NCBI GenBank assembly: GCA_016218545.1
Contig: JACRDQ010000030.1
Span: 256,172-320,171, forward strand
Direction of reading: 5' to 3'
DNA length: 64,000 bases
DNA from: Elusimicrobiota bacterium
Lineage (GTDB): Bacteria > Elusimicrobiota > Elusimicrobia > UBA1565 > UBA9628
The first letter of the stretch is position 1. Each line of letters opens with the position of its first letter. Positions 1,322 to 53,278 of this stretch are shown in pieces. Under the pieces are notes generated by a model, which was not told the DNA's origin, ran no database searches, and worked only from the letters and a program-made list of their open reading frames with translations. The translations under genes and the position numbers were made by a program.

Positions 1322-2768
1322 CGAAGACCGAGGCGCCTTCCGCGTCGTCGCGGAAGACCGGGGCTCCCAGGCTGGACTCAGCCCAGGCCCCGATGAGGGC
1401 TCCCATGTCCCTTGCCCCGGCCGGCACGAAGCCTCCGGGCAGGAAGGAGTGCTCCACGTGGATATGGGTGACTCCAGCCTGGCGCGAGGTCTCGACCCAT
1501 TCCCGCGGTCCGGAAGAGCCGAGCGGCGGGGGGAGGCACTGTCGTCCGGTCAGGAGCATCACCGTGTTGAACTTGAGGCTTTCGACGACCGCGTCCGGAG
1601 GGCTGTTGAGGCGGACCCACTCCATGGTCCGGGCCTGATAGGAGGCCGGCCTGGTCAGGGACGCTGACACCAGCCTTGCGTCCTGCCGGAGCGCGGCCAG
1701 GGCCAGGAGTGCCAGCGCGGCCCGGCCCAACCAGGCCTGTGCCGGCCGGTCCGAGGGGGAGAGGGACCCGATCGCGGAGGCCGCGAAGAGCCAGACCAAG
1801 GGCGCGAGGGGGATGACGTAGCGGGAGTCCTCGGGGCTCCAGGTCAAGTGCAGGACCAGGACCAGGACGGTGTAGGCGGCCATGGCGAAGACCAGGGGCG
1901 TCTCCTCCCTGGAGCTCGTCATGAGGCGCCCTGCGCCCCACGCAGCGCAGCTCGCCAGGGCCAGACCCGCGGCCAAGACCAGCCAGCCCGGAGCCTGGGC
2001 GCCGGCCAGCCCGTCTCCGAAGAAGGAGGCGATGACGGCCAGGGCGTGGCTTCCCTGCGCCCCGGGTTCGCCGAGCAGGGCGACTTGGCTGCGCCAGTTC
2101 ACGGCGTATCCGGTCGAGACCCCGGCCGCGAGCTTGTTGCGCAGGAGCCAGAGGCCAAGGGGCGCCAGGCTCGAGAGGAGGAACGCGCCCTGGCGCCTGC
2201 GGCCGGGAGTGGCGAGGGCTCCTGCGGCCAGGGCCAGGCACAGGAGGCCGCCGTGCGGACGGATGAGACCCGCCCAAGCAGCCGCGGCCCACGCGCAGCC
2301 GGTCAGGGCCCAGGAGCCGGACCGGGTCCCCAGGTCCAGGGCCATGAGCGTCAAGGCCAGGTAGGGGATGTCCGGGAGCACGAGCCCGGAGTGGCGCACG
2401 AAGACGGGAGAGAGCGCGGTCAGGCCGGCCGCTGCCAGGGGCCACGGGGCCGGCAGGAGCCTCCAGCCCAGCCGCCAGGTGAAGAAGACGGCCAGGACCA
2501 TGGCGGCCAGCGGCACGCCGCGCAGGAGGCCCCACCGCGGCTCCGCCAGCCAGACCGGGCCCAGGAGCAGCGCCGCGTAGCCTGGCAGCGGGTCGCTGAC
2601 GGGCACGCCCTGGGCGTCGGGAAGGGCGAAGCCTCCGTGCCGCAGGGAGCGGGCGAGCAGGACCTGGACCGAGTCGTCCTCGATGAGCCCCACGGGGTTG
2701 CCTTTCGAGGCCGCGAGATGAAGGCAGAGCAGCGCGGCTGCGGCCGGCAGGATGAGGCGCGTTCTCAC
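1287..2768 (-). CDS. Polytopic membrane protein, putative GT-C-fold glycosyltransferase (ArnT/PMT-like); tandem paralog of 2765..4393
   Basis: Many hydrophobic segments. The N-terminal loop GLIEDDSVQVLLARSLRHGGFALPD...DPLPGYAALLL is collinear with GAFNDDAFFILLSKSLRTGAFALAD...DPLPGFAALLL of the upstream gene, and there is a soluble C-terminal tail. Start placed at GTG 2768 (GTGA overlap with the upstream stop); ATG 2798 is the alternative. Confidence 0.55.
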   Translation of the reverse strand: MRTRLILPAAAALLCLHLAASKGNPVGLIEDDSVQVLLARSLRHGGFALPDAQGVPVSDPLPGYAALLLGPVWLAEPRWGLLRGVPLAAMVLAVFFTWRLGWRLLPAPWPLAAAGLTALSPVFVRHSGLVLPDIPYLALTLMALDLGTRSGSWALTGCAWAAAAWAGLIRPHGGLLCLALAAGALATPGRRRQGAFLLSSLAPLGLWLLRNKLAAGVSTGYAVNWRSQVALLGEPGAQGSHALAVIASFFGDGLAGAQAPGWLVLAAGLALASCAAWGAGRLMTSSREETPLVFAMAAYTVLVLVLHLTWSPEDSRYVIPLAPLVWLFAASAIGSLSPSDRPAQAWLGRAALALLALAALRQDARLVSASLTRPASYQARTMEWVRLNSPPDAVVESLKFNTVMLLTGRQCLPPPLGSSGPREWVETSRQAGVTHIHVEHSFLPGGFVPAGARDMGALIGAWAESSLGAPVFRDDAEGASVFAIPSAGAPRTR

Positions 2769-4393
2769 GGCCCGGGCTCCTCTGCGGAAAGCGCGCACGC
2801 CAGGCTCGGCTCGAGCTCGAGCGCGGCCTTGAGCCTGCGGCGGAGGATCTTGGACGACGCGCCTGAGGCGGGGTCGCGGGCATGGAGGCAGGCCGTGTAG
2901 GCCTCGAAGTAGCGGCCGGGAGCCGGGTGGTGGATGCGGAACACGGCCGTGCCTTCCCTCGGGTTCGCATAGAGCTCGGAGGCATAGGGCGTCTGGCGAG
3001 CCCAGGACTCCAGGGTGGGGAGCTTGAGGTACGGCAGTGAAGGGTAGGCGAACTCTCCGGACAGAAGGCCCCTGGAGACATGCAGGTGGGTGACCCCGCG
3101 CGCCAGGGCGGAGGCGAGCCAGGCGTGCCGGTCGTAGACGGTCAAACCCGGCGGGACCGTGCGCCGTCCCGTGAAGAGCTCCACGGTGTGGAAGGCCAGG
3201 CTCTCCACGCGCGCTTCAGCCGGGAGGTTCTCGGCCAGCCAGGCCATGGTCTCCGGCTCGAAGGCCGGCCGCGGGCCCAGCCCCCTAGCCGCAAAGCCCA
3301 GGTCATGGCGCAGGAGGGCTGCGGAGAAGGCCAGCAGCAGGAGGCCGGCGGCCAGGGGTCTGCGCTCCAGCCAGATCCTCAGTGAGGCCATGATGAGGAT
3401 GACGACGAACGGGAGCAGGGCGATGAGATACCTGGCCTCCTTCAGGGGCCAGGTGGAGTGCATGGCGAGCACGAAGATGACGTAGGTCGCCATGGCCGCG
3501 GCCGGGACGCCTTCGCTGCCCCGCGCCAGGCGCACCGAGCCGTGAGCGACGAGGGCCAGGCATCCCAGCCCGGCCGCGGCGCTCAGGGCCTCCGGGCCCG
3601 TGACCCCGGCCAGGCCCTGGCCGAAGAGCGCGCCCAGGAGCCCAAGGACATGTCCGGCCTGCTGGAGCGGGTCGGCGAACAGGAAGGACTGGGACTTCCA
3701 GTTCGCGACGAAGCCGGTGACCGTGTCTCCTGCGAGGAGGTTGCGGAGCATCCAGCCCGCCAGGGGGAGGAAGGCTCCGGCCAGGAAGGCAAGTCCGCGG
3801 CCCCACCCCAGCCTCAGCCACACGGCCATGCCCAGGCTCAGGCCGAGGATGCTGCCCTGGGGCCTGGTCAGGCACCCTAGAGCGGCGGCCAAGGACAGGG
3901 CCGGCAGGGCCCAAGCAGGACTTCCGGGAGCCAGGGCCGCGGCTCCGAGGAAGAGGGCCAGGGACAGGGCGAGATAGGGGATGTCCGCGATCACGAGCCC
4001 GTCGAGGCCCACCAGCACGGGGTTGAGGGCCACGACTAGGGCCGCGGCCAGGGCCCAGCCCGGGGAGAGGAAGCGCAAGGCCAGGCGCCAGGTCAGCCAG
4101 ACCGAGAGCAGGGCGAAGGCGACGATCATGGGCTGGAGCAGGTGCCAGCGAGGCTCGACCAGCCAGGACGGGATGAGGAGCAGGGCCGCAAACCCCGGCA
4201 GGGGATCGGTCACGGCGGCGCCGTCCGCCAAGGCGAAGGCGCCGGTCCTCAGGGACTTGGAGAGGAGGATGAAGAAGGCGTCGTCGTTGAACGCTCCCAC
4301 GGCGAAGCGCCGGGCCGCGAGCAGGTGGAGGCCTGCCAGGGCCAGGCAGGCAGGCGCCAAGAGCCATGCCATGGGGAACGCTCGTCTCTTCAT
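2765..4393 (-). CDS. Polytopic membrane protein, putative GT-C-fold glycosyltransferase (ArnT/PMT-like)
   Basis: 542-aa ORF with high GC3, many TM segments and a DD-containing first loop. Its soluble C-terminal domain (ETMAWLAENLPAEARVESLAFHTVELFTGRR...) is paralogous to the one in 1287..2768. Confidence 0.55.
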   Translation of the reverse strand: MKRRAFPMAWLLAPACLALAGLHLLAARRFAVGAFNDDAFFILLSKSLRTGAFALADGAAVTDPLPGFAALLLIPSWLVEPRWHLLQPMIVAFALLSVWLTWRLALRFLSPGWALAAALVVALNPVLVGLDGLVIADIPYLALSLALFLGAAALAPGSPAWALPALSLAAALGCLTRPQGSILGLSLGMAVWLRLGWGRGLAFLAGAFLPLAGWMLRNLLAGDTVTGFVANWKSQSFLFADPLQQAGHVLGLLGALFGQGLAGVTGPEALSAAAGLGCLALVAHGSVRLARGSEGVPAAAMATYVIFVLAMHSTWPLKEARYLIALLPFVVILIMASLRIWLERRPLAAGLLLLAFSAALLRHDLGFAARGLGPRPAFEPETMAWLAENLPAEARVESLAFHTVELFTGRRTVPPGLTVYDRHAWLASALARGVTHLHVSRGLLSGEFAYPSLPYLKLPTLESWARQTPYASELYANPREGTAVFRIHHPAPGRYFEAYTACLHARDPASGASSKILRRRLKAALELEPSLACALSAEEPGP

Positions 4394-4446
4394 AGGGCGC
4401 CGGTGAAGGGGCCTGGAACGGGTGCATTATATTAATTAGGCCGTGG

Positions 4447-4452
4447 TATAAT
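4447..4452 (+). promoter_or_regulatory. Candidate -10 box (TATAAT) 6 nt upstream of ATG 4459; implies a leaderless transcript
   Basis: Perfect TATAAT sits in the only AT-rich patch of the 4394-4458 intergenic region. No Shine-Dalgarno sequence lies between it and the start codon. Confidence 0.4.
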
Positions 4453-4458
4453 GCCTTC

Positions 4459-5097
4459 ATGATGAAGATGAGGGGTCCTCTCAAGCCGGTCTTCCTGGCC
4501 GCCGTGCTGGGTATGTGCGGCGCTTCCGCTCAGGCGGAGTCCCAGCGACGCTTCGTGAGCGGGCAGATATGGAAGAACGGCTCCCACTCCTTTTCCATCA
4601 ACGAGTACTCCCTGGGCATCAGCCTCTGGGTCAATGCCTCGGGCTCGAACCTCTATTTCAGCGGCAGGCCCTTCTCCGGTTCGGTGTGGGGCTCCGGGAC
4701 GTACATGACCATCAGCGGCTCCGGCGTCCAGGCGACCGTCAGCAAGTGGGGGAGCAACTATTCCGTCAGGGGCACGTTCCACCCGGCGGCCGGCGGGCAG
4801 GCGGTGCGCGTGGACTTCACCATGCACGCTCTGGGCCGGGAGGACGACCCGGTGCGTCCTCCCTCCTACAGCGTCTACGACGGCGCCTCGGGTGCGAACC
4901 TCAACCTCAACCCCTCGGGCGCAGACGGCTACAGCATCTCAGGCTGGGTGGATACGGAGAAGTTCGGGGCCCACGGCACCTCCCTGGTCGCGCTGGTGGC
5001 CAGCGCCAGCCTCGAGGCCAGGCCCGAGCCCAAGGCCGCGCAAGAGCCGGCGAAGCTGCCCGGGGCCAGGCTGGCCCCCCTGCCTTCTCCTCTCTAG
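4459..5097 (+). CDS. Secreted hypothetical protein (Gly/Ser-rich, probable beta-rich fold)
   Basis: N-terminal signal peptide (MMKMRGPLKPVFLAAVLGMCGASAQA). High GC3. I recognised no family motif. Confidence 0.6.
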   Translation: MMKMRGPLKPVFLAAVLGMCGASAQAESQRRFVSGQIWKNGSHSFSINEYSLGISLWVNASGSNLYFSGRPFSGSVWGSGTYMTISGSGVQATVSKWGSNYSVRGTFHPAAGGQAVRVDFTMHALGREDDPVRPPSYSVYDGASGANLNLNPSGADGYSISGWVDTEKFGAHGTSLVALVASASLEARPEPKAAQEPAKLPGARLAPLPSPL

Positions 5098-14021: not shown

Positions 14022-15177
14022 ACTTCCGCTGGTTGTAGTCCGCCCGCGTCACCGTGATGAACCTCTTGGTGGTGTCGCCCTTGTGGTCGAAGACGATCGT
14101 CCCCATCATGCTCTCGTGGCGGATCTCCCTGAGGACGTCGAGGAGCGGCTTGCGGCGCTCGAGCGAGACGGCCAGGGCCGAGACGACCAGGCGTCCCGCC
14201 TCGTAGGCGTAGTGGTCGAAGGTCCTCGGCCCGGCGCCGCCCTCGGGGCGCTCCCGCCGGTAGCGCTCGACGAAGTCCCCGGCGCTGGGCAGGTGCTCCA
14301 CCGGGATGCCGCCCACCGTGAAGTACGCTCCGTGGACCGCGGGGCCGGCGATCTTGAAGATCTCGGGGGCCTTGGCGCCGTCGCCGGTCATGAAGGCTGC
14401 GGTCATGCCCTGGCCGCGCGCCTCCTTGACGATGCGCCCGGCCTCGTTGTAGTCCCCGCCGAAGAAGATGCCGTCCGGCTTGAACCGGGAGGCCCACTCG
14501 ACGACTTCCCTGAAATCCGCGGCGCCCTTGGCCACGGCCTCGGCCGCCACCACGCGGCCTCCCTTCTCCGTGAAGCGCTTGGAGAACTCCTCGGACAGGC
14601 CGCGGCCGTAGGCGGTGCCGTCGTGGAGGACCGCGAAGGCCCTGAGGTTGAGGCGGTCGTAGGCGAACTCCGCGGTGAAGGAGCCCTGGATGTCGTCGGC
14701 AGGCGGCAGGCGGAAGACCACGCGGGGCCAGGACCAGTCCGGCTTGGTCTGCTGGACCGTGAGTTCCGGGTTCGTGGCCGAGGGGGTGATCATGGGGATC
14801 CCGGCCTTGGCGTAGACGCGGGAGGCGGCCAAAGAGCAGCCCGAGGTGAGGTGGCCCACCACGGCCTTGACCTTCGGGTCGGCGGCGATGCGCTCCGCCA
14901 CCCGCACGGCCTCCTCGGGCCGGGCCTGGTCGTCGAAGGCGCTGACCTCGATGCGGGTGGGGGGGAACTCGATGGGCTTGGCCTCGGCTGCGGCCATGCG
15001 CACCGCGGCCAGGAGGCCCTCGCCGTCGGCCGCCAATGGGCCGCTCAGGGGTGCTGCCACCGCGATGCGGACCGTCTTGGGCTCCCCGCCGCCGCAGGCC
15101 GCCAGCAGGGCCGCGAGCGCCAGGGCCTTGGCCCAGGCTGGCTGCGGCCGGCCGGCGGGGCGGGGGGGAGGCTTCAT
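13957..15177 (-). CDS. ABC-transporter substrate-binding lipoprotein, Leu/Ile/Val-binding (type I PBP) family
   Basis: Lipoprotein signal with lipobox (LAALLAACGGG). RIAVAAPLSGPLAADGEG, VVGHLTSG and FFGGDY are typical of LivK-like binding proteins. Its start overlaps the upstream stop (ATGA). Confidence 0.8.
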   Translation of the reverse strand: MKPPPRPAGRPQPAWAKALALAALLAACGGGEPKTVRIAVAAPLSGPLAADGEGLLAAVRMAAAEAKPIEFPPTRIEVSAFDDQARPEEAVRVAERIAADPKVKAVVGHLTSGCSLAASRVYAKAGIPMITPSATNPELTVQQTKPDWSWPRVVFRLPPADDIQGSFTAEFAYDRLNLRAFAVLHDGTAYGRGLSEEFSKRFTEKGGRVVAAEAVAKGAADFREVVEWASRFKPDGIFFGGDYNEAGRIVKEARGQGMTAAFMTGDGAKAPEIFKIAGPAVHGAYFTVGGIPVEHLPSAGDFVERYRRERPEGGAGPRTFDHYAYEAGRLVVSALAVSLERRKPLLDVLREIRHESMMGTIVFDHKGDTTKRFITVTRADYNQRKFKSTDPAEASWAAESAAPGSP

Positions 15178-15707
15178 CCCCTCAGGTAGAACCTCAGGTT
15201 CTCGACGAGGTCCACGGCCTTGCCGAGCTGGTACTGGCAGGACTCGAGCTCCTTGGCCAGCGAGTCCTCGGGGAGGCTCGCGCGCGCCTCCTCGGCCAGG
15301 AGTTTCAGCGAGGCCCCGGCGTTGACGAGGAGGCTCTTGAGCTCCCGGGTCATGACCGAGGCCGTCTGGTTGGCCGACTCCTCGCGCCGGGTCTGGTCGA
15401 GCGCGGTGTCGAAGGCCGTCTTCTGGGCCTGGGCCGCGGTCTCCTCGACCTCGGAGACCTTCATCCTGGAGGCGATGAGCGCGGCGTGCTCGCGCTCGAG
15501 GTCCCGGCGGACCTCGACGAGCTGGCTCTCGCAGCGCGCGACCTTGGCCCGGAGCTTGCCGATGAGCGCCTCGCGCTGGCGGATCGGGTCGAGGAGCTTG
15601 CGGATGCGCTCGACCGGGCCGCGGAGCGACTGGGGCAGGCGGCTGGAGAGCTCCTTGAGCGCGGCGTCGGCCCTCTCGAGCGCGGCCTGGCTGAACGCCA
15701 TGTTCAT
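15174..15707 (-). CDS. Coiled-coil hypothetical protein
   Basis: Heptad-rich, Glu/Arg/Leu-rich sequence (MNMAFSQAALERADAALKELSS...). A CATAAT box directly abuts ATG 15707, so the second ATG (15701) may be a leaderless start. Confidence 0.55.
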   Translation of the reverse strand: MNMAFSQAALERADAALKELSSRLPQSLRGPVERIRKLLDPIRQREALIGKLRAKVARCESQLVEVRRDLEREHAALIASRMKVSEVEETAAQAQKTAFDTALDQTRREESANQTASVMTRELKSLLVNAGASLKLLAEEARASLPEDSLAKELESCQYQLGKAVDLVENLRFYLRG

Positions 15708-15839
15708 ATTATGGCAAAAATACCCGGGAAAATGGGGAAAAGCCCGCCGGGTCGGGAAAAACATGATTTCCGTCATTTGAATTAAACGTCCCAAACGGAT
15801 AAAATATGTTTTGCCCTTGAGTTCTTCCGGGGCCTTCCA

Positions 15840-16805
15840 GTGCCGACCCGAACGCAGACGACGACCAGCCTCGAGGCTTCCCTGGGACGGGTGCGCGCAG
15901 GCATGCAAGCCCGCGCCAAGCGCATCTCCGGCCGCGTGGGCTCCGCCCTGGCCGAGCACGTGTCCCGGCCGGGCAAGATGCTCCGGGCGAGGTTCGCGGT
16001 CCAGGTCGGGGCCGCCCTCGGGGTGGCGCCGGGAAAGACCGAGACGGTCGCCCGCGCCATGGAGCTGGCGCACAACGCCTCTCTCCTCCACGACGATTGC
16101 GTCGACGACGCCTCCCTGCGTCGGGGCCTGCCCACGCCCAACAGCGTCTACGGCTCGACCGTGGCGCTCCTCCTGGGGGACATCGCCTTCACCCAGTCGC
16201 TCGAGGAGGCGCTCGAACTCGGCCCCAAGGCCGTGGAGCGCCTCGTGAGCGCGGCGCGCGAGATGGCCATCGGCGAGCTCCAGGAGGAGTTCCTGCGCGG
16301 CTCCGTGGACGTGACCCTCGAGTCCTACATGGGGGTCGCGGCGCGCAAGACCGGGGCCCTCTTCGAGTGGGGCGGCTTGACGCTCTCGGACCTAAGCCCC
16401 CTCGAGCACGCGGCCGCCGACCCCGCCAGGCTGGGCTCGGCGCTCGGCATCCTCCTGCAGATGGTCGACGACATCCACGACTACACCCTGACGGACGCCG
16501 TGGCCGGCAAGGAGCGGGCCAAGGACGCCAAGATCGGGCGCGTGACCCTTCCCGGGGTCTTTGCGCTCGCGGACGCCTCCCGCCGGGGGCGCTTCCTCGA
16601 GTTGTGGGCCGCGCTGCGCCGGGACCCGCGCGCCGCCTCGGACCTGGCGCGCTTCCTCGACGAGAGCGGGTCGCTCGACGAGGCCCGCGCCGAGTGCCGC
16701 AAGGTGGTCGGGACCATCCTCGAGCTGACCCGGCGCCTGCCGGTCCGGGGAGAGGTCGACGAGGTGGCCGAGTTCGTCTCGGCCATGGCCGAGAGGGAAT
16801 TCTGA
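15840..16805 (+). CDS. Long-chain trans-polyprenyl diphosphate synthase (IspB-like)
   Basis: First Asp-rich motif LLHDDCVDD...RRG and second motif QMVDDIHDY. The distances of RPGKMLRA and DDxxD from GTG 15840 match full-length IspB-type enzymes. Confidence 0.85.
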   Translation: MPTRTQTTTSLEASLGRVRAGMQARAKRISGRVGSALAEHVSRPGKMLRARFAVQVGAALGVAPGKTETVARAMELAHNASLLHDDCVDDASLRRGLPTPNSVYGSTVALLLGDIAFTQSLEEALELGPKAVERLVSAAREMAIGELQEEFLRGSVDVTLESYMGVAARKTGALFEWGGLTLSDLSPLEHAAADPARLGSALGILLQMVDDIHDYTLTDAVAGKERAKDAKIGRVTLPGVFALADASRRGRFLELWAALRRDPRAASDLARFLDESGSLDEARAECRKVVGTILELTRRLPVRGEVDEVAEFVSAMAEREF

Positions 16806-17254
16806 TGGGCTACGCCGACCTCATCCGGCGGGCCTGGCGGACCGGGCGCTTCGCCGCCTCGGTCCGGTCGTCCGGGAAGAAGGGCGCCGCGGGCGTCCGT
16901 CCCGGGGAGAGCCGCGGCTCCATCCGCGGCGAGATGGAAGAGATCGTCCGCCGCGAGTCCGCCGACGCGCTCGGCTTCCTCGCGCCGCGCGGGGAGGGAA
17001 TCATGAAGCTCGCACCGTTCGTGAAATTCCGTGAAGAGAAGTTCGGCGCGGTCCTGTTCGAGACCCGTTCCGAGAAGGTGTTCACCCTCAATCCGACGGC
17101 CGCGGACGTGGTGCGGGAGCTCCTCGCCGGCGCCTCGGAGGGCGAGATCGGAGAGCGCCTCAAGGGCCGCTACAGCGACCCCTCGGGCAGGCTCGCCGAC
17201 GAGGCCAAGGCCCTCGTGCGCCAGCTCCGCGACAAGGGGCTCATCGCGGACTAG
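16805..17254 (+). CDS. PqqD/MftB-like peptide-binding chaperone (RRE domain) with ~66-aa N-terminal extension
   Basis: The C-terminal 83 aa (MKLAPFVKFREEKFGAVLFETRSEKVFTLNPTAADVVRELLAG..EGEIGERLKGRY..........ALVRQLRDKGLI) fit the PqqD pattern. The upstream 66 codons have very high GC3, and ATG 16805 overlaps the ispB-like stop (ATGA). ATG 17004 is the alternative start. Confidence 0.7.
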   Translation: MGYADLIRRAWRTGRFAASVRSSGKKGAAGVRPGESRGSIRGEMEEIVRRESADALGFLAPRGEGIMKLAPFVKFREEKFGAVLFETRSEKVFTLNPTAADVVRELLAGASEGEIGERLKGRYSDPSGRLADEAKALVRQLRDKGLIAD

Positions 17255-17255
17255 C

Positions 17256-18254
17256 ATGGCTTCGAGGAAGGACGCGGTCAAGGCCGGAGGCCGGGCGTCC
17301 CGGGCGCCCTTGGAAGAGGCGTTGGCGCCCGGGATGCGGGCGCCGCTCTACATCGGCTGGCAGCTGACCAATGCCTGCGACCTGGCGTGCGTCCACTGCA
17401 TCGAGGAGTCCGGGCCGGGCCGCGCCTTCAAGGACGAGCTGACCCGGGAGCAGGCCTTCCGTATCCTCGAGCAGATCAAGACCGAGCAGGTGCCCTACGT
17501 CGCCTTCTCCGGGGGCGAGCCCTTCCTCCACCCGCACTTCCTGGAACTGGCCGCGTTCCTCGGAGACGCCGGGGTGTCGCTCAAGGTCGAGACCAACGGC
17601 CGCCACCTCACCGAGGCGGCCGCCTCGGCGCTGCGGGACCACGGAGTCCGGGCCGTGCAGGTCAGCCTCGACGGCGCCACCCCCGAGGCCTACCGCAAGG
17701 TGCGGCCCTCCGGCGACCACGCCCGGGTCCTGGCAGGCATCCGCCTCCTGCGCTCCAGGGGCGTGGAGGTGGAGGTCAACTTCGTCCCGACGCGGCACAA
17801 CGTCCATGAGATCGGAGCCGCCGTGGACCTGGCCTTCAGCGAGGGGGTCTCCGGCTTCTACACGGGCAGGCTCATCCTGGCCGGCCACGCCGCCAAGGCG
17901 CGGGACCTGGCCCCGACCCAGGAGCAGTACGACGCCTTCTTCGCGTGCCTCAAGGCCAAGGCCCAGGAGTACAAGGGCCGCATGACCGTGCGCTATCACG
18001 AGCTGGGCATCGCGCAGGAGGTCCGCTACCGCATGGCCAACCCCGCGGCCCTCTTCGTCATCCTGCCCGACGGCAGGGTGAAGCTCCTCAACGCCCTGCC
18101 GTTCGTGTGCGGCGACCTGCGCGAGCAGAGCCTCACCGAGGTCTGGAAGGCCTTCCTCGCGGGCTGGAAGTCGCCGCGGGTGGCCGACTTCGTCGGCCGC
18201 CTGGAGGCCGACCCCGGGCTCCTGCAAGGACTGCACCGATGGATCCCTTTGTGA
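17256..18254 (+). CDS. Radical SAM enzyme A, PqqE/MftC-like, degenerate (Cys-less) SPASM-like C-terminus
   Basis: CxxxCxxC cluster motif in WQLTNACDLACVHCIEESGPG, SAM-binding FSGGEP, and KVETNG. C-terminal remnant ILPDGRVKLLNALPFVCGDLREQSLTEVW. Only 2 Cys lie outside the cluster motif. Confidence 0.8.
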   Translation: MASRKDAVKAGGRASRAPLEEALAPGMRAPLYIGWQLTNACDLACVHCIEESGPGRAFKDELTREQAFRILEQIKTEQVPYVAFSGGEPFLHPHFLELAAFLGDAGVSLKVETNGRHLTEAAASALRDHGVRAVQVSLDGATPEAYRKVRPSGDHARVLAGIRLLRSRGVEVEVNFVPTRHNVHEIGAAVDLAFSEGVSGFYTGRLILAGHAAKARDLAPTQEQYDAFFACLKAKAQEYKGRMTVRYHELGIAQEVRYRMANPAALFVILPDGRVKLLNALPFVCGDLREQSLTEVWKAFLAGWKSPRVADFVGRLEADPGLLQGLHRWIPL

Positions 18255-19198
18255 CCGAGTCCGGCGTGGAGACCGACGGCCGCGCCGCTCCGGCCCGCGG
18301 CGGCGGGAGCGGGCGGCCGAATCTGGCCCTGCGGATGGCGTCTGCGGTGCGCTACCGCTTCTTCCTGTACGCGGGACTCCTCCCGTACTTCCTCGGCGCG
18401 GCCTGGGCCCTGCGCATGGAGGGAGCCTTCGCGCCCGGCCGCTTCTGGCTGGGCCTGCTGGGCATCGGCCTGTCCGTCGTGGGTGTTGAGTCCTTCAACG
18501 AGTACTTCGACGCGCGCATGGGCACGGACCGCGTCTTCAACCCTTCCGACGACGAGTACATCCCCGCCTGGATGCTCTGGCTGGGGGTCGCGGCGTTCGC
18601 GGCCGCGGCGTGCGTGGGCATGGCCCTGGCCCATGCCGGAGGCTGGCCCATCCTCCTCTACATGGGGCTGGGCGGCATGGCCGCGGCCTTCTACGTGGGC
18701 CCGCCTTTCCGCTGGGCCTACCTGGGCCTCGGCGAGACCTCGATCGCCTTGTCCTACGGGCCCTGGATGACCCTGGGCAGCATCCACCTGCACACGGGCG
18801 CTTTCTCCTGGCGCGGCCTGGCGGCCGCGCTCGTGCCCGGCTTGCTGGTGGCGTCGCTCGCCGTGGTCAACGAGATCCCGGATTTCCACCAGGACCGGCT
18901 CGTGGGCAAGCGCAACCTCGTGGTGCGGCTGGGCCGCAGGAACGGGGTCGCCCTGTACCTCGCCCTGGCCGGGGCGGGCTTGGCCGCGTGCTTCGCAGGC
19001 GCGGCCGCGGGCTGGTTCCCGGTCGCGTGCGGCCTGGCCGGGGCCCTGGGCCTGCCGTGCTGGTTCTCGAGCGCTCGGACCGCGGTCAAGGCGTGGGACA
19101 CGCCGCGGCTTTTCGTGCCCGCGGTGCGGGACATCGTGCAGTGCTATCTCGTGACCGTGAGCGCCTTCATCATGGCGCTCGCCGTGAGGCTGCCGTGA
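18239..19198 (+). CDS. UbiA-superfamily aromatic prenyltransferase, MenA-like
   Basis: Polytopic membrane protein. First motif NEYFDARMGTD (NxxxDxxxGxD) and second motif NEIPDFHQDRLVGKRNLVVRLG (NxxxDxxxDxxxGKxxLxVRLG) have the same spacing as in MenA. ATG 18239 overlaps rSAM A by 16 nt. Confidence 0.75.
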   Translation: MDPFVTESGVETDGRAAPARGGGSGRPNLALRMASAVRYRFFLYAGLLPYFLGAAWALRMEGAFAPGRFWLGLLGIGLSVVGVESFNEYFDARMGTDRVFNPSDDEYIPAWMLWLGVAAFAAAACVGMALAHAGGWPILLYMGLGGMAAAFYVGPPFRWAYLGLGETSIALSYGPWMTLGSIHLHTGAFSWRGLAAALVPGLLVASLAVVNEIPDFHQDRLVGKRNLVVRLGRRNGVALYLALAGAGLAACFAGAAAGWFPVACGLAGALGLPCWFSSARTAVKAWDTPRLFVPAVRDIVQCYLVTVSAFIMALAVRLP

Positions 19199-20109
19199 GG
19201 ATCGCGTCCTTCGACGTTCCCCTGGCCGCTGCCTGGCGCCTGACCGACCGGTGCGACCTCTCCTGCCGGCACTGCCTCAACGCTTCCGGGCCCAAGGCTG
19301 ACACGGCCGCCGAGCTCTCCCGGCCCGAGGCTCTCAAGCTGGCCCGGAGCATCGGCTCAGCCCAGGTCCCCTACGTCATCCTCTGCGGGGGCGAGCCCAT
19401 GCTGAGCCCCGACTTCTGGCAGGCGGCCGAGACCCTGGGCGAGGCAGGCGCGTGGCTCAAGGTGGAGACGCACGGCCAGAACCTCGGGCGCACCCAGGCG
19501 GAGCGCCTGGCCAAGCTCCCCATCCGCTCGGTCCAGGTCTCTCTCGACGGGGTCACCCAGCAGGCTTACGAGTCCCTGCGGCCAGGGGCCTCCCTGGCCA
19601 AGACCTTGGAAGCTTGCCGCGAGGTGCGGCGTCAAGGCATGCCCCTCGAGATCTCCTTCGTCCCGGTCCAGGGCAACATCCACGAGGCTCCGGCGGTCAT
19701 CGACCTGGCCCTGGACCTGGGCGCCTTCCGGTTCAACACCGGGACCCTCATCAAGCGCGGCCGCGCCGCAGCCGCTTGGAAGAAGCTCCTTCCTGATGCC
19801 GAGTCCATGGCAGGCTTGCTCGCGGTCCTCACCCGTCGCGAAGCCACCCTGGCCGGGAGGCTCGAGCTCTGCTTCAGGCCTTTCAATTTCGAAGACCAGG
19901 TCCGCGCCGAACGCGCGGAGCCCTCAGGCACGCTCACGATCCTGCCTGACGGCAAGGTCCCTGTCTCGGCCTCCTCGGACGTCGTCTGCGCCGACCTTCG
20001 GACGCAGACGGTCAGGGAGGCCTGGCGCGCTTACTTGGCGGCGCACGGCAAGGGGCCACGATCGGAAAGATGGGTCGGCTCGTGTCTTGAGCCGGCTACC
20101 CGGTCCTAG
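19195..20109 (+). CDS. Radical SAM enzyme B, paralog of A and C
   Basis: WRLTDRCDLSCRHCLNASGP, CGGEP, KVETHG, ILPDGKVPV...VVCADLRTQTVREAW. GTG 19195 overlaps the prenyltransferase stop (GTGA). Confidence 0.75.
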   Translation: MRIASFDVPLAAAWRLTDRCDLSCRHCLNASGPKADTAAELSRPEALKLARSIGSAQVPYVILCGGEPMLSPDFWQAAETLGEAGAWLKVETHGQNLGRTQAERLAKLPIRSVQVSLDGVTQQAYESLRPGASLAKTLEACREVRRQGMPLEISFVPVQGNIHEAPAVIDLALDLGAFRFNTGTLIKRGRAAAAWKKLLPDAESMAGLLAVLTRREATLAGRLELCFRPFNFEDQVRAERAEPSGTLTILPDGKVPVSASSDVVCADLRTQTVREAWRAYLAAHGKGPRSERWVGSCLEPATRS

Positions 20110-20129: not shown

Positions 20130-20255
20130 ATGAGAGACAAGAAGAACGTGACGGATGGAAAGGCGAAGGCCGACAAGAAGCCCGTGTGGCAGACCCCTTC
20201 TCTCGAAGAGGTCACCGAGCGTGTCATGGCCCAGCCGTACATCAGGTTCACGTGA
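20130..20255 (+). CDS. 41-aa candidate precursor peptide, PqqA/MftA-like (MRDKKNVTDGKAKADKKPVWQTPSLEEVTERVMAQPYIRFT)
   Basis: Not in the ORF track because it is too short. A GGAGA Shine-Dalgarno lies 4 nt upstream of ATG 20130. About 82% GC3. Stop TGA 20253-20255 overlaps the GTG start of rSAM C (GTGA). It sits between rSAM genes and downstream of a PqqD-like gene. The W-x2-P-x3-E-V...Y-I-x3 spacing matches PqqA as I recall it. Confidence 0.6.
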   Translation: MRDKKNVTDGKAKADKKPVWQTPSLEEVTERVMAQPYIRFT

Positions 20256-21226
20256 CGCACCCGAGGGGGGCGGCGGTAGGAGACTACCGCGCCCCCCTCT
20301 TTGTCGCGTGGCAACTCACCAACCGCTGCCGCGGCCGCTGCCTGGCCTGCTGCGAGGAATCCGGTCCGGGCAAGGGAATCCGCCAAGGCGGGTCCTGGCA
20401 GGCTGAGCTCACCAAGCAGGAAGCCCTCCGCGTCAGCCGCGACATCGCGGCCTCCGGGGTCTCCTACGTGGCGTTCGGCGGGGGGGAACCCATGGAGGTG
20501 CCGCACTTCTGGGACATCCTCTCCATCCTCTCCAAGGGCGGGGTCCGCATCAAGATCGAGACCAACGGCGGGACCATCGGCCGCTCCCAGGCCAAGCGCC
20601 TCTCCGCCTTGGGCGTGTCCTCCATCCAGATCAGCCTCGACGGCCCCACGGCCCGCGAGCACGAGGCCTTGAGGCCCGGCTCGAGCTTCAACAAAGCGGT
20701 CCGGGCGGTCCGCTGTCTGGCTGAGGAAGGGCTCGGGCCTGAGGTCGTGTTCATCCCCATGAAGAGGAACGTGGGCCAGGCCGTCAAGGTCTACCGATTG
20801 GCGGCCAGTCTCGGAGCCAGGGTGCTTGCGACCGGCCCTCTCATGCGCCTGGGACGCGCCGGAGCAGCATGGAAGGAACTCGCCCCGTCGGCCGGGCGAT
20901 GGCGGACCGCGGTCCGGGCGCTCAAGGCCGAGGCCGCCCGTGCCAAGGCAGGGCCCAAGCTCTCCATCTATCCCTGGGGCATCCAGAGGGAGATCGAGAC
21001 CAGGCTCGAGCATCCCCAGGCCATGGTCCTCGTGGTGCCTGACGGCAAGGTCAAGCTCCTCAATGCCCTCCCTTTTGCTCCAGGCGACCTGCGGCGACAC
21101 TCCCTGGCCCAGGCCTGGACGCGCTGCCTCGGAGCTTGGCGCGACCCCAAGGTGCGGGCTTTCTGCCGCAAGGCCGTGAAGGACCCCGGGCTCCTGGCGC
21201 ACGCCAACGAATGCTGGCCCGCCTAA
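20252..21226 (+). CDS. Radical SAM enzyme C, paralog of A and B
   Basis: WQLTNRCRGRCLACCEESGPG, FGGGEP, KIETNG, VVPDGKVKLLNALPFAPGDLRRHSLAQAW. There is no in-frame ATG upstream of the motif, so the start is placed at GTG 20252. Confidence 0.75.
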   Translation: MTHPRGAAVGDYRAPLFVAWQLTNRCRGRCLACCEESGPGKGIRQGGSWQAELTKQEALRVSRDIAASGVSYVAFGGGEPMEVPHFWDILSILSKGGVRIKIETNGGTIGRSQAKRLSALGVSSIQISLDGPTAREHEALRPGSSFNKAVRAVRCLAEEGLGPEVVFIPMKRNVGQAVKVYRLAASLGARVLATGPLMRLGRAGAAWKELAPSAGRWRTAVRALKAEAARAKAGPKLSIYPWGIQREIETRLEHPQAMVLVVPDGKVKLLNALPFAPGDLRRHSLAQAWTRCLGAWRDPKVRAFCRKAVKDPGLLAHANECWPA

Positions 21227-33632: not shown

Positions 33633-33992
33633 TCATGGTCCAAGCCTGCGCCTGATATCGTCCACCCGCCGCCTGATCTCCTCCTCGCTGGGGAGCTGCA
33701 CCTTGCCTGGATCTGCCTCCGGGCCATCCGCGTTTGAAGGCCCTGACGGGTTCGGCCGTGCCGCAGGGTACTTTGCCGTGAGCTGGACGGAAACCGTGTT
33801 GAAGAGCTCCTGCCATGTGCCTCCCGGGGGAGTCTTGCCGAACTGTCCTGTCCAAGTGTAGCAGCCGCAGAGGCCGCAGTCAGGGGTCTCCAGACCCAAG
33901 GATGCAATCGGATCAGGACCCAGGGGGCATGGGCCCTGCGTTCGCCTTGATAACGGCGTTGGATTTTTGAGAGAATGAAGCGACAATCCCAT
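33633..33992 (-). CDS. Possible small hypothetical protein (CGLCGC motif); start uncertain
   Basis: In-frame ATG 33992, or TTG further in giving about 87 aa. Moderate GC3 (about 75%) in the region ...[28 protein letters not shown]...[17 protein letters not shown]. No SD or family recognised. Confidence 0.3.
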
Positions 33993-34010
33993 CGGCGGAG
34001 GTCCAAAGAA

Positions 34011-34754
34011 ATGTTCCAGAGCACGTCGTCCGTCCTCATCATCCTCGTGGTCGCGGCGTTCCTGTCCATCAAGCTGGTCAATGAGTACGACCGGGTGGTG
34101 GTCTTCGTCCTGGGCCGGCTCTGGAAGGTCTGCGGCCCCGGGCCCATCATCGTGGTGCCCGGCATCATGCGCGGCCAGCTGGTGAGCCTCCGGACCGTGG
34201 TCCTCGACGTGCCCCCGCAGGACGTCATCACCAAGGACAACGTCTCCATCAAGGTCAACGCCGTCGTCTATCTGCGGGTGGTGGACGCGCAGCGGGCGGT
34301 CATCCAGGTGGAGAACTACCTCTATGCCACGAGCCAGTGGGCGCAGACGACCCTGCGCTCGATCCTGGGCAAGTCCGAGGTCGACGAGATCCTGGCGCAC
34401 CGCGACAAGATCAACAACGAGCTCCAGCAGATCCTCGACGCCCACACCGAGCCGTGGGGCGTGAAGGTCTCCAACGTCGAGATCAAGAACGTGGACTTCG
34501 CGCAGGAGATGCTGCGCGCCATGGCCAAGCAGGCCGAGGCCGAGCGCGAGCGCCGCGCCAAGGTCATCCACGCGGAAGGCGAGCTCCAGGCCTCCGAGAA
34601 GCTGGGACAGGCCGCCAAGGTCCTGTCGGCCGACCCGGCCTCCATCCAGCTCCGGTACCTGCAGACGCTCTCTGAGATCGCGATCGACAAGAACTCCACC
34701 ACCATCTTCCCGGTGCCGGTGGACGTGATCTCGATGTTCGTCAAGAAGACTTGA
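34011..34754 (+). CDS. SPFH / Band-7 (stomatin-like) membrane protein
   Basis: N-terminal TM ([13 protein letters not shown]), then [15 protein letters not shown]...DVITKDNV...RSILG and a coiled coil [22 protein letters not shown] lies 9 nt upstream of ATG 34011; ATG 33975 is the alternative. Confidence 0.85.
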
Positions 34755-49192: not shown

Positions 49193-49198
49193 AGCATT

Positions 49199-49207
49199 TG
49201 ATATGAT
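49199..49207 (+). promoter_or_regulatory. Candidate extended -10 (TGATATGAT) 6 nt upstream of ATG 49214; leaderless candidate
   Basis: The sequence reads catTTGATATGATggtcggATG, in a 21-nt intergenic gap. Confidence 0.35.
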
Positions 49208-49213
49208 GGTCGG

Positions 49214-53259: not shown

Positions 53260-53278
53260 ACCACGACGGAGGATCGCC

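What the first reader, a model, noticed from the sequence alone, without database searches (positions are those of the whole stretch)
18239..19198. MenA-type prenyltransferase embedded between peptide-modifying radical SAM genes
The membrane protein carries both MenA-spaced Asp-rich motifs: NEYFDARMGTD and NEIPDFHQDRLVGKRNLVVRLG. It overlaps rSAM A by 16 nt and rSAM B by 4 nt, so it is not a chance neighbour. No other men, mqn or ubi genes are visible in the 64 kb. MenA-family enzymes prenylate small aromatic acids. In this context the acceptor could be a processed Tyr-derived fragment of the peptide.
Basis: partly seen in the sequence, partly recalled or inferred. Interest (0 to 1): 0.6.

Follow-up and report, generated by a model that had tools for sequence, protein, structure and literature searches.

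The report
Peptide-linked MenA-like prenyltransferase gene module
A membrane prenyltransferase that resembles the vitamin-K2 enzyme MenA is a fixed part of a widespread, undescribed gene set that modifies a tiny, almost invariant peptide, and it probably builds a lipid-tailed, peptide-derived electron carrier for respiratory chains.

Summary
Window 18239-19198 (+) encodes a 319-aa UbiA-superfamily protein of the MenA/UBIAD1 branch. It overlaps radical SAM (rSAM) genes by 16 nt upstream and 4 nt downstream.

It is not a housekeeping menA. It scores below every curated MenA cut-off. It sits in a seven-gene operon: long-chain polyprenyl synthase, PqqD-like chaperone, rSAM A, prenyltransferase, rSAM B, a 41-aa peptide, rSAM C.

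The operon is syntenic in all informative related loci. An rSAM lies next to the prenyltransferase gene in 126/126 loci and PqqD in 118/118. At least 245 species genomes carry a relative, mostly Elusimicrobiota.

A simpler relative (peptide, PqqD, one rSAM, prenyltransferase, with a polyprenyl synthase nearby in several loci) uses the same peptide core.

The peptide ends in VMAQPYIRFT. That tail shows many synonymous changes and almost no amino-acid changes.

Outside Elusimicrobiota the module lies beside quinone-linked machinery: NQR-type operons, complex I, complex II, CymA/MtrAB, NrfD-type molybdoenzymes and a [NiFe] hydrogenase.

No curated family or searchable paper covers it.

Best reading: a peptide-derived, polyprenylated membrane redox carrier. 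The chemistry is inferred, not shown.

The parts
15777..15805 (+). sigma-70-like promoter match in the only AT-rich gap upstream of the operon
   Evidence: TTGAAT-17-TAAAAT, 9 of 12 matches; 1 found against 0.1 expected. Consensus match only, not shown to be active.
15840..16805 (+). trans-polyprenyl diphosphate synthase, long-chain type (first gene of the operon)
   Evidence: Pfam PF00348 at 2e-40. Best NCBIfam hits are solanesyl, heptaprenyl and octaprenyl synthases, all below cut-off. Small residues at -4/-5 before the DDxxD motif (HNASLLHDDCVDD) indicate a long chain (sequence plus the established chain-length rule, own knowledge). Present upstream in the Elusimicrobia-type loci and absent in proteobacterial ones.
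16805..17254 (+). PqqD-family peptide chaperone (RiPP recognition element) with a 66-aa N-terminal extension
   Evidence: Pfam PqqD PF05402 at 3.2e-11 over residues 82-147. Below the cut-offs of the PqqD, MftB and lasso-PqqD equivalogs. Its ATG overlaps the stop of the synthase gene (ATGA). Present in 118/118 loci with enough flank.
17256..18254 (+). radical SAM enzyme A (core peptide maturase; orthologue of the single rSAM of the simpler variant)
   Evidence: PF04055 at 5e-26. CX3CX2C motif present; no SPASM cysteine set. AF2 model pLDDT 84.9; best folds are SkfB, PqqE and SuiB. Sister to the single rSAM of the simple variant.
18239..19198 (+). MenA/UBIAD1-branch UbiA-superfamily polyprenyltransferase (the finding)
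19195..20109 (+). radical SAM enzyme B (paralogue of A)
   Evidence: PF04055 at 1.8e-19. Monophyletic B group, ~37 % identical to A and C. CX3CX2C conserved.
20130..20255 (+). precursor or scaffold peptide gene, 41 aa: MRDKKNVTDGKAKADKKPVWQTPSLEEVTERVMAQPYIRFT
   Evidence: AGGAGA lies 5 nt upstream of the ATG. Found once each in 119 of 161 sources. Of 118 full-length copies, 111 have distinct DNA; there are abundant synonymous changes and almost no amino-acid changes in the last 10 codons. Gene callers call it elsewhere. 2704 peptide clusters are in the protein collection, all unnamed.
20252..21226 (+). radical SAM enzyme C (paralogue; GTG start overlaps the peptide stop, GTGA)
   Evidence: PF04055 at 3.6e-21. 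Monophyletic C group. The operon ends here; the next genes are convergent.

Best explanation
The gene encodes the dedicated membrane prenyltransferase of a self-contained pathway that processes a ribosomal peptide. It is not the housekeeping menA.

Proposed sequence of events (all inferred unless marked):
1. The ~40-aa peptide is bound through its W-x-x-P...E-[ED]-V-[ST] region by the PqqD-like chaperone.
2. The rSAM enzyme or enzymes (one in the simple variant; three paralogues A, B and C here) carry out radical chemistry on the invariant C-terminal PYIRFT core, most likely centred on the Tyr. PqqE and MftC do this in PQQ and mycofactocin synthesis.
3. The MenA-like enzyme attaches a long polyprenyl chain to the resulting aromatic group by the usual UbiA-type aromatic substitution. 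Here the chain is supplied by the co-encoded long-chain synthase.
4. Unclustered peptidases and oxidases may then trim and oxidise the product.

The product is most likely a polyprenylated, peptide-derived, quinone-like electron carrier in the membrane that serves quinone-dependent respiratory and extracellular electron-transfer enzymes.

Shown: gene content, order, coupling, conservation, family placement and neighbourhoods.
Inferred: every chemical step and the redox role.
For: Dedicated module:
- An rSAM gene lies directly upstream of the prenyltransferase gene in 125/126 loci; the 126th has a 308-bp gap. PqqD is present in 118/118.
- Three of three peptide-first look-ups also found PqqD-rSAM-UbiA.
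- Start and stop codons overlap along the operon.
- Flanking genes in the window are unrelated housekeeping genes.

Two architectures share one core set (peptide, PqqD, rSAM, prenyltransferase) and the same peptide core. A polyprenyl synthase adjoins it in the Elusimicrobia-type loci and in several simple-variant loci.

Not MenA:
- Below all curated MenA cut-offs.
- Family-specific RYRFF and NEYFD signatures.
- The only solved relative is UBIAD1.

Peptide under strong purifying selection: 118 copies, 111 distinct DNAs, VMAQPYIRFT unchanged apart from Met to Thr in two copies. PYIRFT is kept even in an archaeal-looking variant.

Peptide-maturase nature of the rSAMs: best folds are SkfB, PqqE and SuiB; best profile hits are MftC, AhbD, NirJ and PqqE.

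Long-chain synthase.

Redox role, by association:
- NQR-type operons with NqrF directly upstream.
- Complex I.
- SdhCAB/Frd.
- NrfD-type and Nar-like molybdoenzymes.
- CymA/NapC in 14 loci, MtrB in 13, MtrA-like and MtrC-like cytochromes, and a [NiFe] hydrogenase with an Isp-like subunit.
- Overall, 19/30 loci without their own synthase and 6/9 simple loci have such a neighbour.

No exporter or immunity gene recurs across lineages. The only recurrent peptidase is a caspase-like C14 gene confined to 9 related Elusimicrobia loci.

A 2026 census of bacterial quinone pathways lists only UQ, RQ, PQ, mPQ and MK. It notes that many lineages appear devoid of any pathway (PMC13386864).
Against: - No biochemical data exist, and every host found is an uncultured MAG or a metagenome contig.
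- The cluster has no hydroxylase or oxidase that would turn a phenol into a quinone, and no peptidase.
- In the window's own Elusimicrobia clade, 0 of 54 loci have respiratory neighbours. The redox link therefore rests on other lineages.
- Some of the 'NQR' operons carry an RnfC-like first subunit, so not every neighbour is certainly quinone-dependent.
- Curated PqqA models do not match the peptide.
- The W-to-Y spacing shared with PqqA is recalled from memory, not tested.
- UbiA-superfamily enzymes are not known to accept peptide substrates.
- Whether host genomes also carry Men, Mqn or Ubi pathways could not be tested.
Confidence: 0.55

Rival explanations
1. Lipidated RiPP natural product. 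The peptide is matured by the rSAMs and prenylated to give a membrane-anchored or secreted lipopeptide (signal, antibiotic or structural), not an electron carrier.
For: The layout is RiPP-like: a peptide, a PqqD-type recognition element and rSAM maturases whose best folds are RiPP maturases. Prenylated RiPPs exist (ComX, cyanobactins; own knowledge). No oxidase or hydroxylase lies in the cluster. In the window's own clade the flanks say nothing about respiration.
Against: The core is practically invariant across phyla and across both architectures, unlike the variable cores of bioactive RiPPs. There is one peptide copy per locus. No exporter or immunity gene recurs, and the only recurrent peptidase is a caspase-like C14 gene in 9 related Elusimicrobia loci. 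The synthase is of the long-chain type, typical of quinone tails. The module repeatedly adjoins quinone-linked complexes in unrelated lineages and orientations.
Confidence: 0.2
2. A third route to a true naphthoquinone. The rSAMs build a DHNA-like bicyclic acceptor from the peptide, and the enzyme acts as a MenA in the strict chemical sense, giving menaquinone or a close analogue.
For: The enzyme's nearest relatives are MenA-like proteins and UBIAD1. CymA-type quinol dehydrogenases, which use menaquinol in Shewanella (own knowledge), are frequent neighbours in proteobacterial hosts, most of which make ubiquinone (PMC13386864). The same paper reports MK measured in four species with no known MK pathway.
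Against: There is no chemical precedent for building a naphthoate from peptide residues. One rSAM suffices in the simple variant. The family is well separated from proteins that reach MenA cut-offs.
Confidence: 0.12
3. Ordinary housekeeping menA of a classical or futalosine menaquinone pathway that merely sits among unrelated rSAM genes.
For: JGI pipelines annotate family members as '1,4-dihydroxy-2-naphthoate octaprenyltransferase'. The best NCBIfam hits are MenA models. The rest of the host genome could not be inspected.
Against: It is below every MenA cut-off. Linkage to rSAM, PqqD and the peptide is invariant in 126 loci, two architectures and several phyla, with overlapping reading frames. 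The rSAMs are not MqnC/MqnE-like; their best hits are MftC, AhbD, NirJ and PqqE. No men, mqn or ubi gene lies in the 64 kb. It also occurs in Pseudomonadota, 98 % of which have the ubiquinone pathway.
Confidence: 0.04
4. The prenyltransferase makes a non-quinone polyprenyl product (for example a lipid carrier or a pigment) and is co-regulated with an independent soluble peptide-derived cofactor pathway.
For: UbiA-superfamily enzymes have many acceptor types (haem O, chlorophyll, DGGGP, DPPR; own knowledge, and the fold matches).
Against: Co-inheritance is obligate and the genes interleave: the prenyltransferase gene sits between rSAM A and rSAM B with overlapping codons. The same four genes recur in the minimal variant. 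Sequence placement is specifically in the MenA/UBIAD1 branch.
Confidence: 0.05

Closest known systems
PQQ biosynthesis core (PqqA peptide, PqqD chaperone, PqqE radical SAM)
   Same: A small peptide, a PqqD-family chaperone and an rSAM. The rSAM fold matches PqqE (6c8v, E 1.4e-15). The peptide has W-x-x-P and an invariant Tyr 17 residues after the Trp, the same spacing as in PqqA sequences recalled from memory. The product is inferred to be a redox cofactor.
   Different: PqqE and PqqD equivalog scores are far below cut-off (83 vs 381; 19.4 vs 46). There are no SPASM auxiliary-cluster cysteines (no PF13186). PqqA models do not match the peptide. No PqqB, PqqC or PqqF is present. A MenA-like prenyltransferase and a polyprenyl synthase are added.
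Mycofactocin system (MftA/MftB/MftC)
   Same: MftC is the best-scoring curated model for rSAM A and B. The peptide core is invariant, C-terminal and contains Tyr. A PqqD-like chaperone is present.
   Different: Scores are below cut-off (128 and 99 vs 265; MftB 23.2 vs 33). The core is PYIRFT rather than GVY. No MftD, MftE or MftF is present. Mycofactocin involves no membrane prenylation.
MenA / UBIAD1 (1,4-dihydroxy-2-naphthoate polyprenyltransferase, menaquinone synthesis)
   Same: Same fold, and both Asp-rich motifs have MenA-type spacing. The best profile and structure matches are MenA models and UBIAD1. It probably uses a long polyprenyl diphosphate.
   Different: It is below all MenA cut-offs. 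The first motif is NEYFD rather than NDxxD, and there is a family-specific N-terminal RYRFF motif. The gene context contains no men genes; it is always rSAM, PqqD and the peptide.
Futalosine pathway (rSAM enzymes MqnE and MqnC with a UbiA-family prenyltransferase)
   Same: Radical SAM chemistry combined with a UbiA-family prenyltransferase to make a membrane quinone.
   Different: Futalosine starts from chorismate, with no peptide and no PqqD. Its rSAMs belong to the CofG/CofH-like group (own knowledge), which is not among the best hits here.
Prenylated RiPPs (ComX pheromones, cyanobactins)
   Same: A ribosomal peptide receives an isoprenoid.
   Different: Those use soluble ComQ or ABBA-type transferases and short C5-C15 donors, and their cores vary (own knowledge). 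Here the transferase is an integral-membrane UbiA-type enzyme, the synthase is long-chain and the core is invariant.
Caldariellaquinone of Sulfolobales (own knowledge; a lead, not a test)
   Same: An isoprenoid quinone whose ring system was shown by labelling to derive from tyrosine. It is a chemical precedent for a Tyr-derived lipoquinone.
   Different: It occurs in a different lineage, its genes are to my knowledge unknown, and peptide involvement is not known.

Membership tests
UbiA prenyltransferase superfamily (PF01040) | Profile match above the curated threshold | tested here: met
   56.6 bits against a cut-off of 34.2, E 3e-15, residues 48-276.
UbiA prenyltransferase superfamily (PF01040) | Two Asp-rich motifs for Mg2+ and diphosphate binding | tested here: met
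   NEYFDARMGTD (87-97) and NEIPDFHQDRLVGK (211-224). Both are invariant or nearly so in 24 family members.
UbiA prenyltransferase superfamily (PF01040) | Multi-helix membrane fold like solved UbiA homologues | tested here: met
   The AF2 model has ~9 long helices. Foldseek matches: UBIAD1 8djk (3.7e-6), DGGGPS 7bpu/6m31, ApUbiA 4od4, all with TM-score ~0.6-0.7.
MenA (DHNA polyprenyltransferase; TIGR00751 and the NF0047xx equivalogs) | Score at or above the curated equivalog cut-off | tested here: not met
   TIGR00751: 63.3 vs 102.15. NF004751: 102.3 vs 264. All 9 other MenA-type models are also below cut-off. The same holds for family and shell relatives.
MenA (DHNA polyprenyltransferase; TIGR00751 and the NF0047xx equivalogs) | Belongs to a genome with DHNA-forming Men or Mqn enzymes | not testable with these tools
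   None lies in the 64-kb window. The rest of the 320-kb contig and the genome could not be read; look-ups of window proteins failed.
MenA (DHNA polyprenyltransferase; TIGR00751 and the NF0047xx equivalogs) | Prenylates 1,4-dihydroxy-2-naphthoate | not testable with these tools
   Needs an enzyme assay.
PQQ biosynthesis (PqqA/PqqD/PqqE) | PqqE and PqqD equivalog scores; SPASM auxiliary Fe-S cysteines; PqqA peptide model; PqqB and PqqC present | tested here: not met
   PqqE 83 vs 381 and PqqD 19.4 vs 46. Only one conserved C-terminal Cys. No PqqA hit. No PqqB- or PqqC-type Pfam domain in the window. Only the generic PqqD Pfam domain is met (43.8 vs 23.4).
Mycofactocin system | MftC and MftB equivalog scores; C-terminal GVY peptide | tested here: not met
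   MftC 128 (rSAM A) and 99 (rSAM B) vs 265; MftB 23.2 vs 33. The peptide ends in PYIRFT.
rSAM/RRE-dependent RiPP-type pathway (generic) | Short peptide gene clustered with a PqqD-type recognition element and an rSAM with a peptide-maturase fold | tested here: met
   (best folds SkfB, PqqE, SuiB).
rSAM/RRE-dependent RiPP-type pathway (generic) | The peptide is actually modified by the enzymes | not testable with these tools
   Needs co-expression and mass spectrometry.
Futalosine-pathway rSAMs (MqnC/MqnE) | Profile match to the MqnC or MqnE families | tested here: not met
   They are not among the 25 best NCBIfam hits of any of the three... of rSAM A or B, whose best hits are MftC, AhbD, NirJ and PqqE, all below cut-off. 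rSAM C was scanned against Pfam only.
Isoprenoid quinone biosynthesis (functional class) | The product is a redox-active polyprenylated ring in the membrane | not testable with these tools
   Only contextual support: a long-chain synthase and neighbouring quinone-dependent complexes.

The most novel reading that the evidence does not exclude
This module is a third, previously unrecognised origin of respiratory isoprenoid quinones. The head group would be cut out of a ribosomally made peptide (Tyr of the invariant PYIRFT core) by radical SAM chemistry and then polyprenylated by a MenA-like enzyme. It would supply the pool quinone of respiring Elusimicrobiota and other lineages that appear to lack known quinone pathways. 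In Pseudomonadota it would supply a second, probably low-potential, carrier for CymA/MtrAB-type extracellular electron transfer, NQR and NrfD-type enzymes.
Probability: 0.35. Interest if true: 0.95.

Novelty: categorically new. Interest (0 to 1): 0.86.

Why it matters
Every known isoprenoid quinone head group comes from a small-molecule aromatic precursor, ultimately from chorismate or free tyrosine (own knowledge). The 2026 census of bacterial quinones lists only the UQ, RQ, PQ, mPQ and MK (Men, futalosine) pathways. It remarks that many lineages look devoid of any pathway and that more quinones may await discovery (PMC13386864).

A peptide-derived, polyprenylated carrier would have four consequences.
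- It would add a new biosynthetic logic, joining RiPP-type cofactor pathways (PQQ, mycofactocin) to membrane lipid chemistry.
- It would correct routine misannotation of thousands of proteins as MenA, which inflates 'menaquinone' calls in metabolic reconstructions of MAGs.
- It would give a concrete, testable candidate for the missing electron carrier of respiring Elusimicrobiota.
- It would suggest a dedicated carrier for Mtr/CymA-type metal respiration or oxidation in soil and groundwater Pseudomonadota.

Even if the product is 'only' a lipopeptide, it would be the first RiPP class prenylated by a UbiA-superfamily enzyme.

Tried and rejected
Searches and look-ups that led nowhere:
- Reading the rest of the host contig or genome. 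Look-ups of window proteins, including the 100 % identical P0001, were not on record. A genome-wide search for men, mqn and ubi genes was therefore impossible.
- Literature. Combinations of PqqD, UbiA, radical SAM, prenyltransferase, RiPP, Elusimicrobia and menaquinone, the string MAQPYIRFT, and extracellular electron transfer terms returned nothing that describes this module.
- The Elusimicrobia genomics paper and its supplements say nothing about quinone synthesis genes.
- The quinone census supplements held no per-taxon data for these lineages.
- Peptide against Pfam and NCBIfam, including the PqqA models: no meaningful hit.
- Prenyltransferase against PLSDB plasmids: no match, so no cultured or plasmid-borne copy was found that way.

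Ideas considered and dropped:
- Futalosine-type rSAMs: rejected from the profile hits.
- SPASM or twitch auxiliary clusters in the rSAMs: rejected.
- A conserved tailoring enzyme, peptidase or exporter shared by all lineages: none found. There is only a caspase-like C14 peptidase in 9 related Elusimicrobia loci, a Methyltransf_11 gene in one simple locus that is generic by NCBIfam, and response regulators.
- Gln(Y-2) or Met(Y-4) as the cross-link partner of Tyr, by analogy with Glu in PqqA. This is weakened by the archaeal-looking variant VIPRPYIRFT and by Met to Thr in two copies.
Full report
**1. What is at the coordinates**

Window 18239-19198 (+) is an open frame of 319 codons.
- It carries both quoted motifs: NEYFDARMGTD at residues 87-97 and NEIPDFHQDRLVGKRNLVVRLG at residues 211-232.
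- It matches Pfam UbiA (PF01040; 56.6 bits against a cut-off of 34.2).
- An AlphaFold model built on 24 homologues (pLDDT 77.8) is a bundle of about nine long helices.
- Its best solved matches are UBIAD1 (8djk, E 3.7e-6), DGGGP synthase and the archaeal UbiA homologues.
- By sequence the only solved relative is UBIAD1.
- The ATG at 18239 precedes the stop of the upstream rSAM gene (18252-18254) by 16 nt. The GTG of the downstream rSAM gene (19195) overlaps the stop codon by 4 nt.
- Third-position GC switches frame at those junctions.

One caveat: the poorly conserved first ~30 residues leave a start at Met33 possible.

**2.

The window is ~70 % G+C. It is 100 % identical, over this gene, to an NCBI Elusimicrobia MAG contig of 320 kb.

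After the only AT-rich gap, which holds a sigma-70-like match at 15777-15805, seven + strand genes follow with touching or overlapping codons:
- a polyprenyl synthase (15840-16805; PF00348, 2e-40);
- a PqqD-domain protein (16805-17254);
- rSAM A (17256-18254);
- the prenyltransferase (18239-19198);
- rSAM B (19195-20109);
- a 41-codon ORF with its own AGGAGA site (20130-20255);
- rSAM C (20252-21226, GTGA overlap).

Convergent housekeeping genes follow: a GHL6-like protein, purH and ligA. Upstream genes are regulators and a binding protein. Pfam scans of 45 of the 49 called genes in the 64 kb found no men, mqn or ubi domain.

**3. It is not a bona fide MenA**

- All eleven MenA-type NCBIfam models score below their cut-offs. 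The best is NF004751 at 102.3 vs 264; TIGR00751 gives 63.3 vs 102.15.
- An exhaustive HMMER search of 1.84 billion representatives shows three tiers: the protein's own family (at least 50 % identity), a shell of full-length relatives at 37-45 %, and then MenA-like proteins at about 28-40 %.
- Family and shell members also fail every MenA cut-off. Only more remote proteins reach TIGR00751.
- Family and shell share signatures that the MenA-like proteins beyond them lack: an N-terminal [IV]RYRF[FL]xAGxxPY motif and NEYFD in place of NDYFD.
- No rooted tree with characterised reference enzymes was built, so the clade is inferred from scores, signatures and shared context.

**4. The linkage is obligate and ancient**

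- A scan of one genome per GTDB species found 245 stretches encoding a relative. The 80 best are mostly Elusimicrobiota MAGs. There are also Gamma- and Betaproteobacteria MAGs (Casimicrobiaceae, Steroidobacteraceae) and a Rhodopila MAG.
- All loci with enough flank show the order [synthase]-PqqD-rSAM A-prenyltransferase-rSAM B-peptide-rSAM C. The synthase is missing in the proteobacterial type.
- A metagenome scan seeded with the 37-45 % shell found a simpler architecture as well as more three-rSAM loci. It is peptide-PqqD-one rSAM-prenyltransferase, with a polyprenyl synthase downstream in several loci.
- Over the 160 loci from the two collection scans (L001-L160), an rSAM gene ends within ~300 bp of the prenyltransferase start in 125 of 126 informative cases; the remaining one has a 308-bp gap. 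PqqD is present in 118 of 118.
- Starting from the peptide instead, three of three look-ups again found PqqD-rSAM-UbiA.
- An archaeal-looking contig (TrmB, mevalonate-pathway genes) also has PqqD-rSAM-UbiA with a peptide.

**5. The peptide**

- The small ORF occurs once per locus, in 119 of 161 sources.
- Among 118 full-length copies there are 111 distinct DNA versions.
- The last ten codons (VMAQPYIRFT) show plentiful synonymous change. The only amino-acid change is Met to Thr in two copies.
- W(-22), P(-19), E(-16) and V(-14) are invariant too.
- Across all variants, including the simple type (…KIMAQPYIRFT) and the archaeal-looking one (…VIPRPYIRFT), the universal residues are W-x-x-P-x-x-E-x-V and P-Y-I-R-F-T at the C-terminus.
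- A profile search finds 2704 distinct peptide clusters in public data. All are unnamed or 'hypothetical', and none has a Pfam domain.
- Neither Pfam nor NCBIfam (June 2026), including their PqqA models, recognises the peptide.
- From memory, PqqA peptides also carry W-x-x-P with the reactive Tyr 17 residues after the Trp, the spacing seen here. This is a lead, not a test.

**6. The radical SAM enzymes**

- All three keep CX3CX2C and the GGE motif.
- None has the cysteine set of a SPASM or twitch auxiliary cluster. One C-terminal Cys is conserved in A, B and the simple-variant enzyme.
- Precomputed Pfam for 120 homologues lists only Radical_SAM and Fer4_12.
- A, B and C are each monophyletic and ~36-37 % identical to one another. 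The single rSAM of the simple variant is sister to A. The three-enzyme form therefore probably arose by duplication.
- The best curated hits are MftC, AhbD, NirJ and PqqE, all far below cut-off.
- The rSAM A model (pLDDT 84.9) is closest to the peptide maturases SkfB (8e-17), PqqE (1.4e-15) and SuiB.

**7. The polyprenyl synthase**

The best NCBIfam hits of known chain length are solanesyl, heptaprenyl and octaprenyl diphosphate synthases. The residues at -4 and -5 before the first DDxxD are small (Ser, Ala). By the established chain-length rule (own knowledge) this indicates a long product, as in quinone tails.

**8. Neighbourhoods point to the membrane quinone pool**

The window's own clade has uninformative flanks (0 of 54 loci). 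Other lineages do not.

| Neighbour | Where |
|---|---|
| NQR-type operon ending in an NqrF-like subunit, immediately upstream | L082, L084, L090, L129, L151, L156, L165, L167 |
| Complex I (nuoA-G) within 6 kb | L161 |
| SdhCAB/Frd with a Crp/Fnr regulator | L169 |
| NrfD-type and Nar/Nxr-like molybdoenzymes | L163, L165 |
| HdrB/C-like CCG proteins | L084 |
| NapC/CymA tetrahaem quinol dehydrogenases | 14 loci |
| MtrB/PioB porins | 13 loci |
| MtrA-like and MtrC/OmcA-like multihaem cytochromes | proteobacterial and soil loci |
| [NiFe] hydrogenase with an Isp-like subunit | L077, L079 |

- The Mtr, CymA and cytochrome genes are often flush against the module, on either side and in either orientation.
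- In total, 19 of 30 three-rSAM loci without their own synthase have such a neighbour, as do 6 of 9 simple loci.
- Some 'NQR' operons begin with an RnfC-like subunit, so not every case is certainly quinone-dependent.
- No exporter or immunity gene recurs across lineages. The only recurrent peptidase is a caspase-like C14 gene in 9 related Elusimicrobia loci.

**9. Interpretation**

Shown:
- a dedicated, vertically and horizontally conserved module consisting of a peptide, a PqqD-like chaperone, one to three rSAMs and a MenA-branch prenyltransferase, with a long-chain synthase adjacent in many loci;
- a peptide under extreme purifying selection;
- repeated association with membrane electron-transfer complexes.

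Inferred:
- the chaperone presents the peptide to the rSAM(s);
- the rSAM(s) modify the PYIRFT core around Tyr;
- the MenA-like enzyme polyprenylates the resulting aromatic group;
- after trimming and oxidation by unlinked enzymes, the product works as a quinone-like carrier.

Where the host has ubiquinone (Pseudomonadota; 98 % have the pathway according to PMC13386864), the module lacks its own synthase and sits with low-potential or extracellular electron-transfer modules. Where it carries its own synthase (Elusimicrobia-type), it may supply the main carrier.

I put about 0.85-0.9 on 'dedicated prenyltransferase of a peptide-based pathway'. I put about 0.5-0.55 on 'the product is a membrane redox carrier'.

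**10. Rivals**

- A lipidated RiPP natural product remains possible (0.2). The invariant core, the long-chain synthase, the lack of export and immunity genes and the respiratory neighbours argue against it.
- A peptide-based route to a true naphthoquinone is a special case (0.12).
- Housekeeping menA is very unlikely (0.04).
- An unrelated polyprenyl product co-regulated with a soluble cofactor is unlikely because the genes interleave (0.05).

**11. Novelty**

None of the seven gene products reaches a curated NCBIfam cut-off; rSAM C was scanned against Pfam only. The peptide belongs to no curated family. JGI labels the enzyme as MenA and NCBI as 'prenyltransferase'. Seven full-text searches found no description. 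The 2026 census of bacterial quinone pathways knows only UQ, RQ, PQ, mPQ and the two MK routes, and it explicitly leaves room for undiscovered quinones. A RiPP-type pathway coupled to a UbiA-superfamily membrane prenyltransferase is, as far as I can establish, without precedent.

**12. Limits**

- All hosts found are uncultured.
- No chemistry is demonstrated.
- The host genome outside the window could not be examined.
- The association statistics come from loci chosen by similarity and are not phylogenetically independent, although the variety of neighbours, positions and orientations argues against simple shared ancestry.

Noticed in passing
window 16805-17003 (N-terminal 66 residues of the PqqD-like protein): The PqqD-domain protein of the Elusimicrobia-type operon has a basic extension of ~66 aa. 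It is conserved across that clade (tblastn matches span the whole 149 aa) but absent from the ~83-aa proteobacterial and simple-variant proteins. Its function is unknown.
   Followed up: partly
L090, L165, L167, L168 (upstream of the peptide gene): The ion-translocating oxidoreductase operons next to the simple variant mix an RnfC-like first subunit (RnfC_N, Complex1_51K, Fer4) with an NqrF-like last subunit (Fer2, FAD_binding_6, NAD_binding_1). This may be an unusual Rnf/Nqr hybrid.
   Followed up: no
L166 764-910 and 929-3055: An archaeal-looking contig (TrmB, mevalonate kinase-type genes, isopentenyl phosphate kinase-like gene) carries PqqD-rSAM-UbiA. Its peptide ends in VIPRPYIRFT, so the family may reach Archaea. 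A cluster relative is labelled Aigarchaeota in NCBI.
   Followed up: partly
L007-L009, L011, L013, L022, L024, L027, L071 (downstream of rSAM C): A caspase-like Peptidase_C14 gene follows the operon in nine related Elusimicrobia loci. It is a candidate leader or trimming peptidase, but it is not conserved elsewhere.
   Followed up: partly
L139 7846-8643: A class I SAM methyltransferase (Methyltransf_11) overlaps the end of the prenyltransferase gene in one simple-variant locus. NCBIfam gives only weak, generic hits (BioC, MenG/UbiE subfamily at 23 bits).
   Followed up: partly
L109, L122, L131, L147 (directly beside the module): A ~530-aa DUF4139 protein sits immediately next to the module in four soil loci that also carry Mtr/CymA genes.
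   Followed up: no
window 33975-35857: A lone fourth radical SAM gene (368 aa, PF04055) overlaps the end of an SPFH/Band_7 gene by 4 nt. It is unrelated to the operon by position and was not characterised.
   Followed up: no
window 1287-5097: Three consecutive large ORFs (503, 542 and 212 aa) with a clear coding signature have no Pfam match at E 1e-5.
   Followed up: no
window 47459-53259: Two TPR-rich proteins are followed by a TPR + Ser/Thr protein kinase fusion (796 aa). An S10 carboxypeptidase-like gene (53252-54802) follows directly, and an S8 subtilase lies further downstream at 60608-62221.
   Followed up: no
window 38537-40666 (-): A 709-aa protein has a C-terminal FGE-sulfatase (formylglycine-generating enzyme-like) domain and a long N-terminal region with no Pfam match.
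   Followed up: no
L011, L015, L021, L025, L026, L032, L048, L060, L066 (about 44 bp upstream of the synthase gene): A small (~170-200 aa) protein that looks like a winged-helix transcription regulator sits directly upstream, on the same strand, in several Elusimicrobia loci. The window lacks it and has a divergent coiled-coil protein instead (15174-15794).
   Followed up: no
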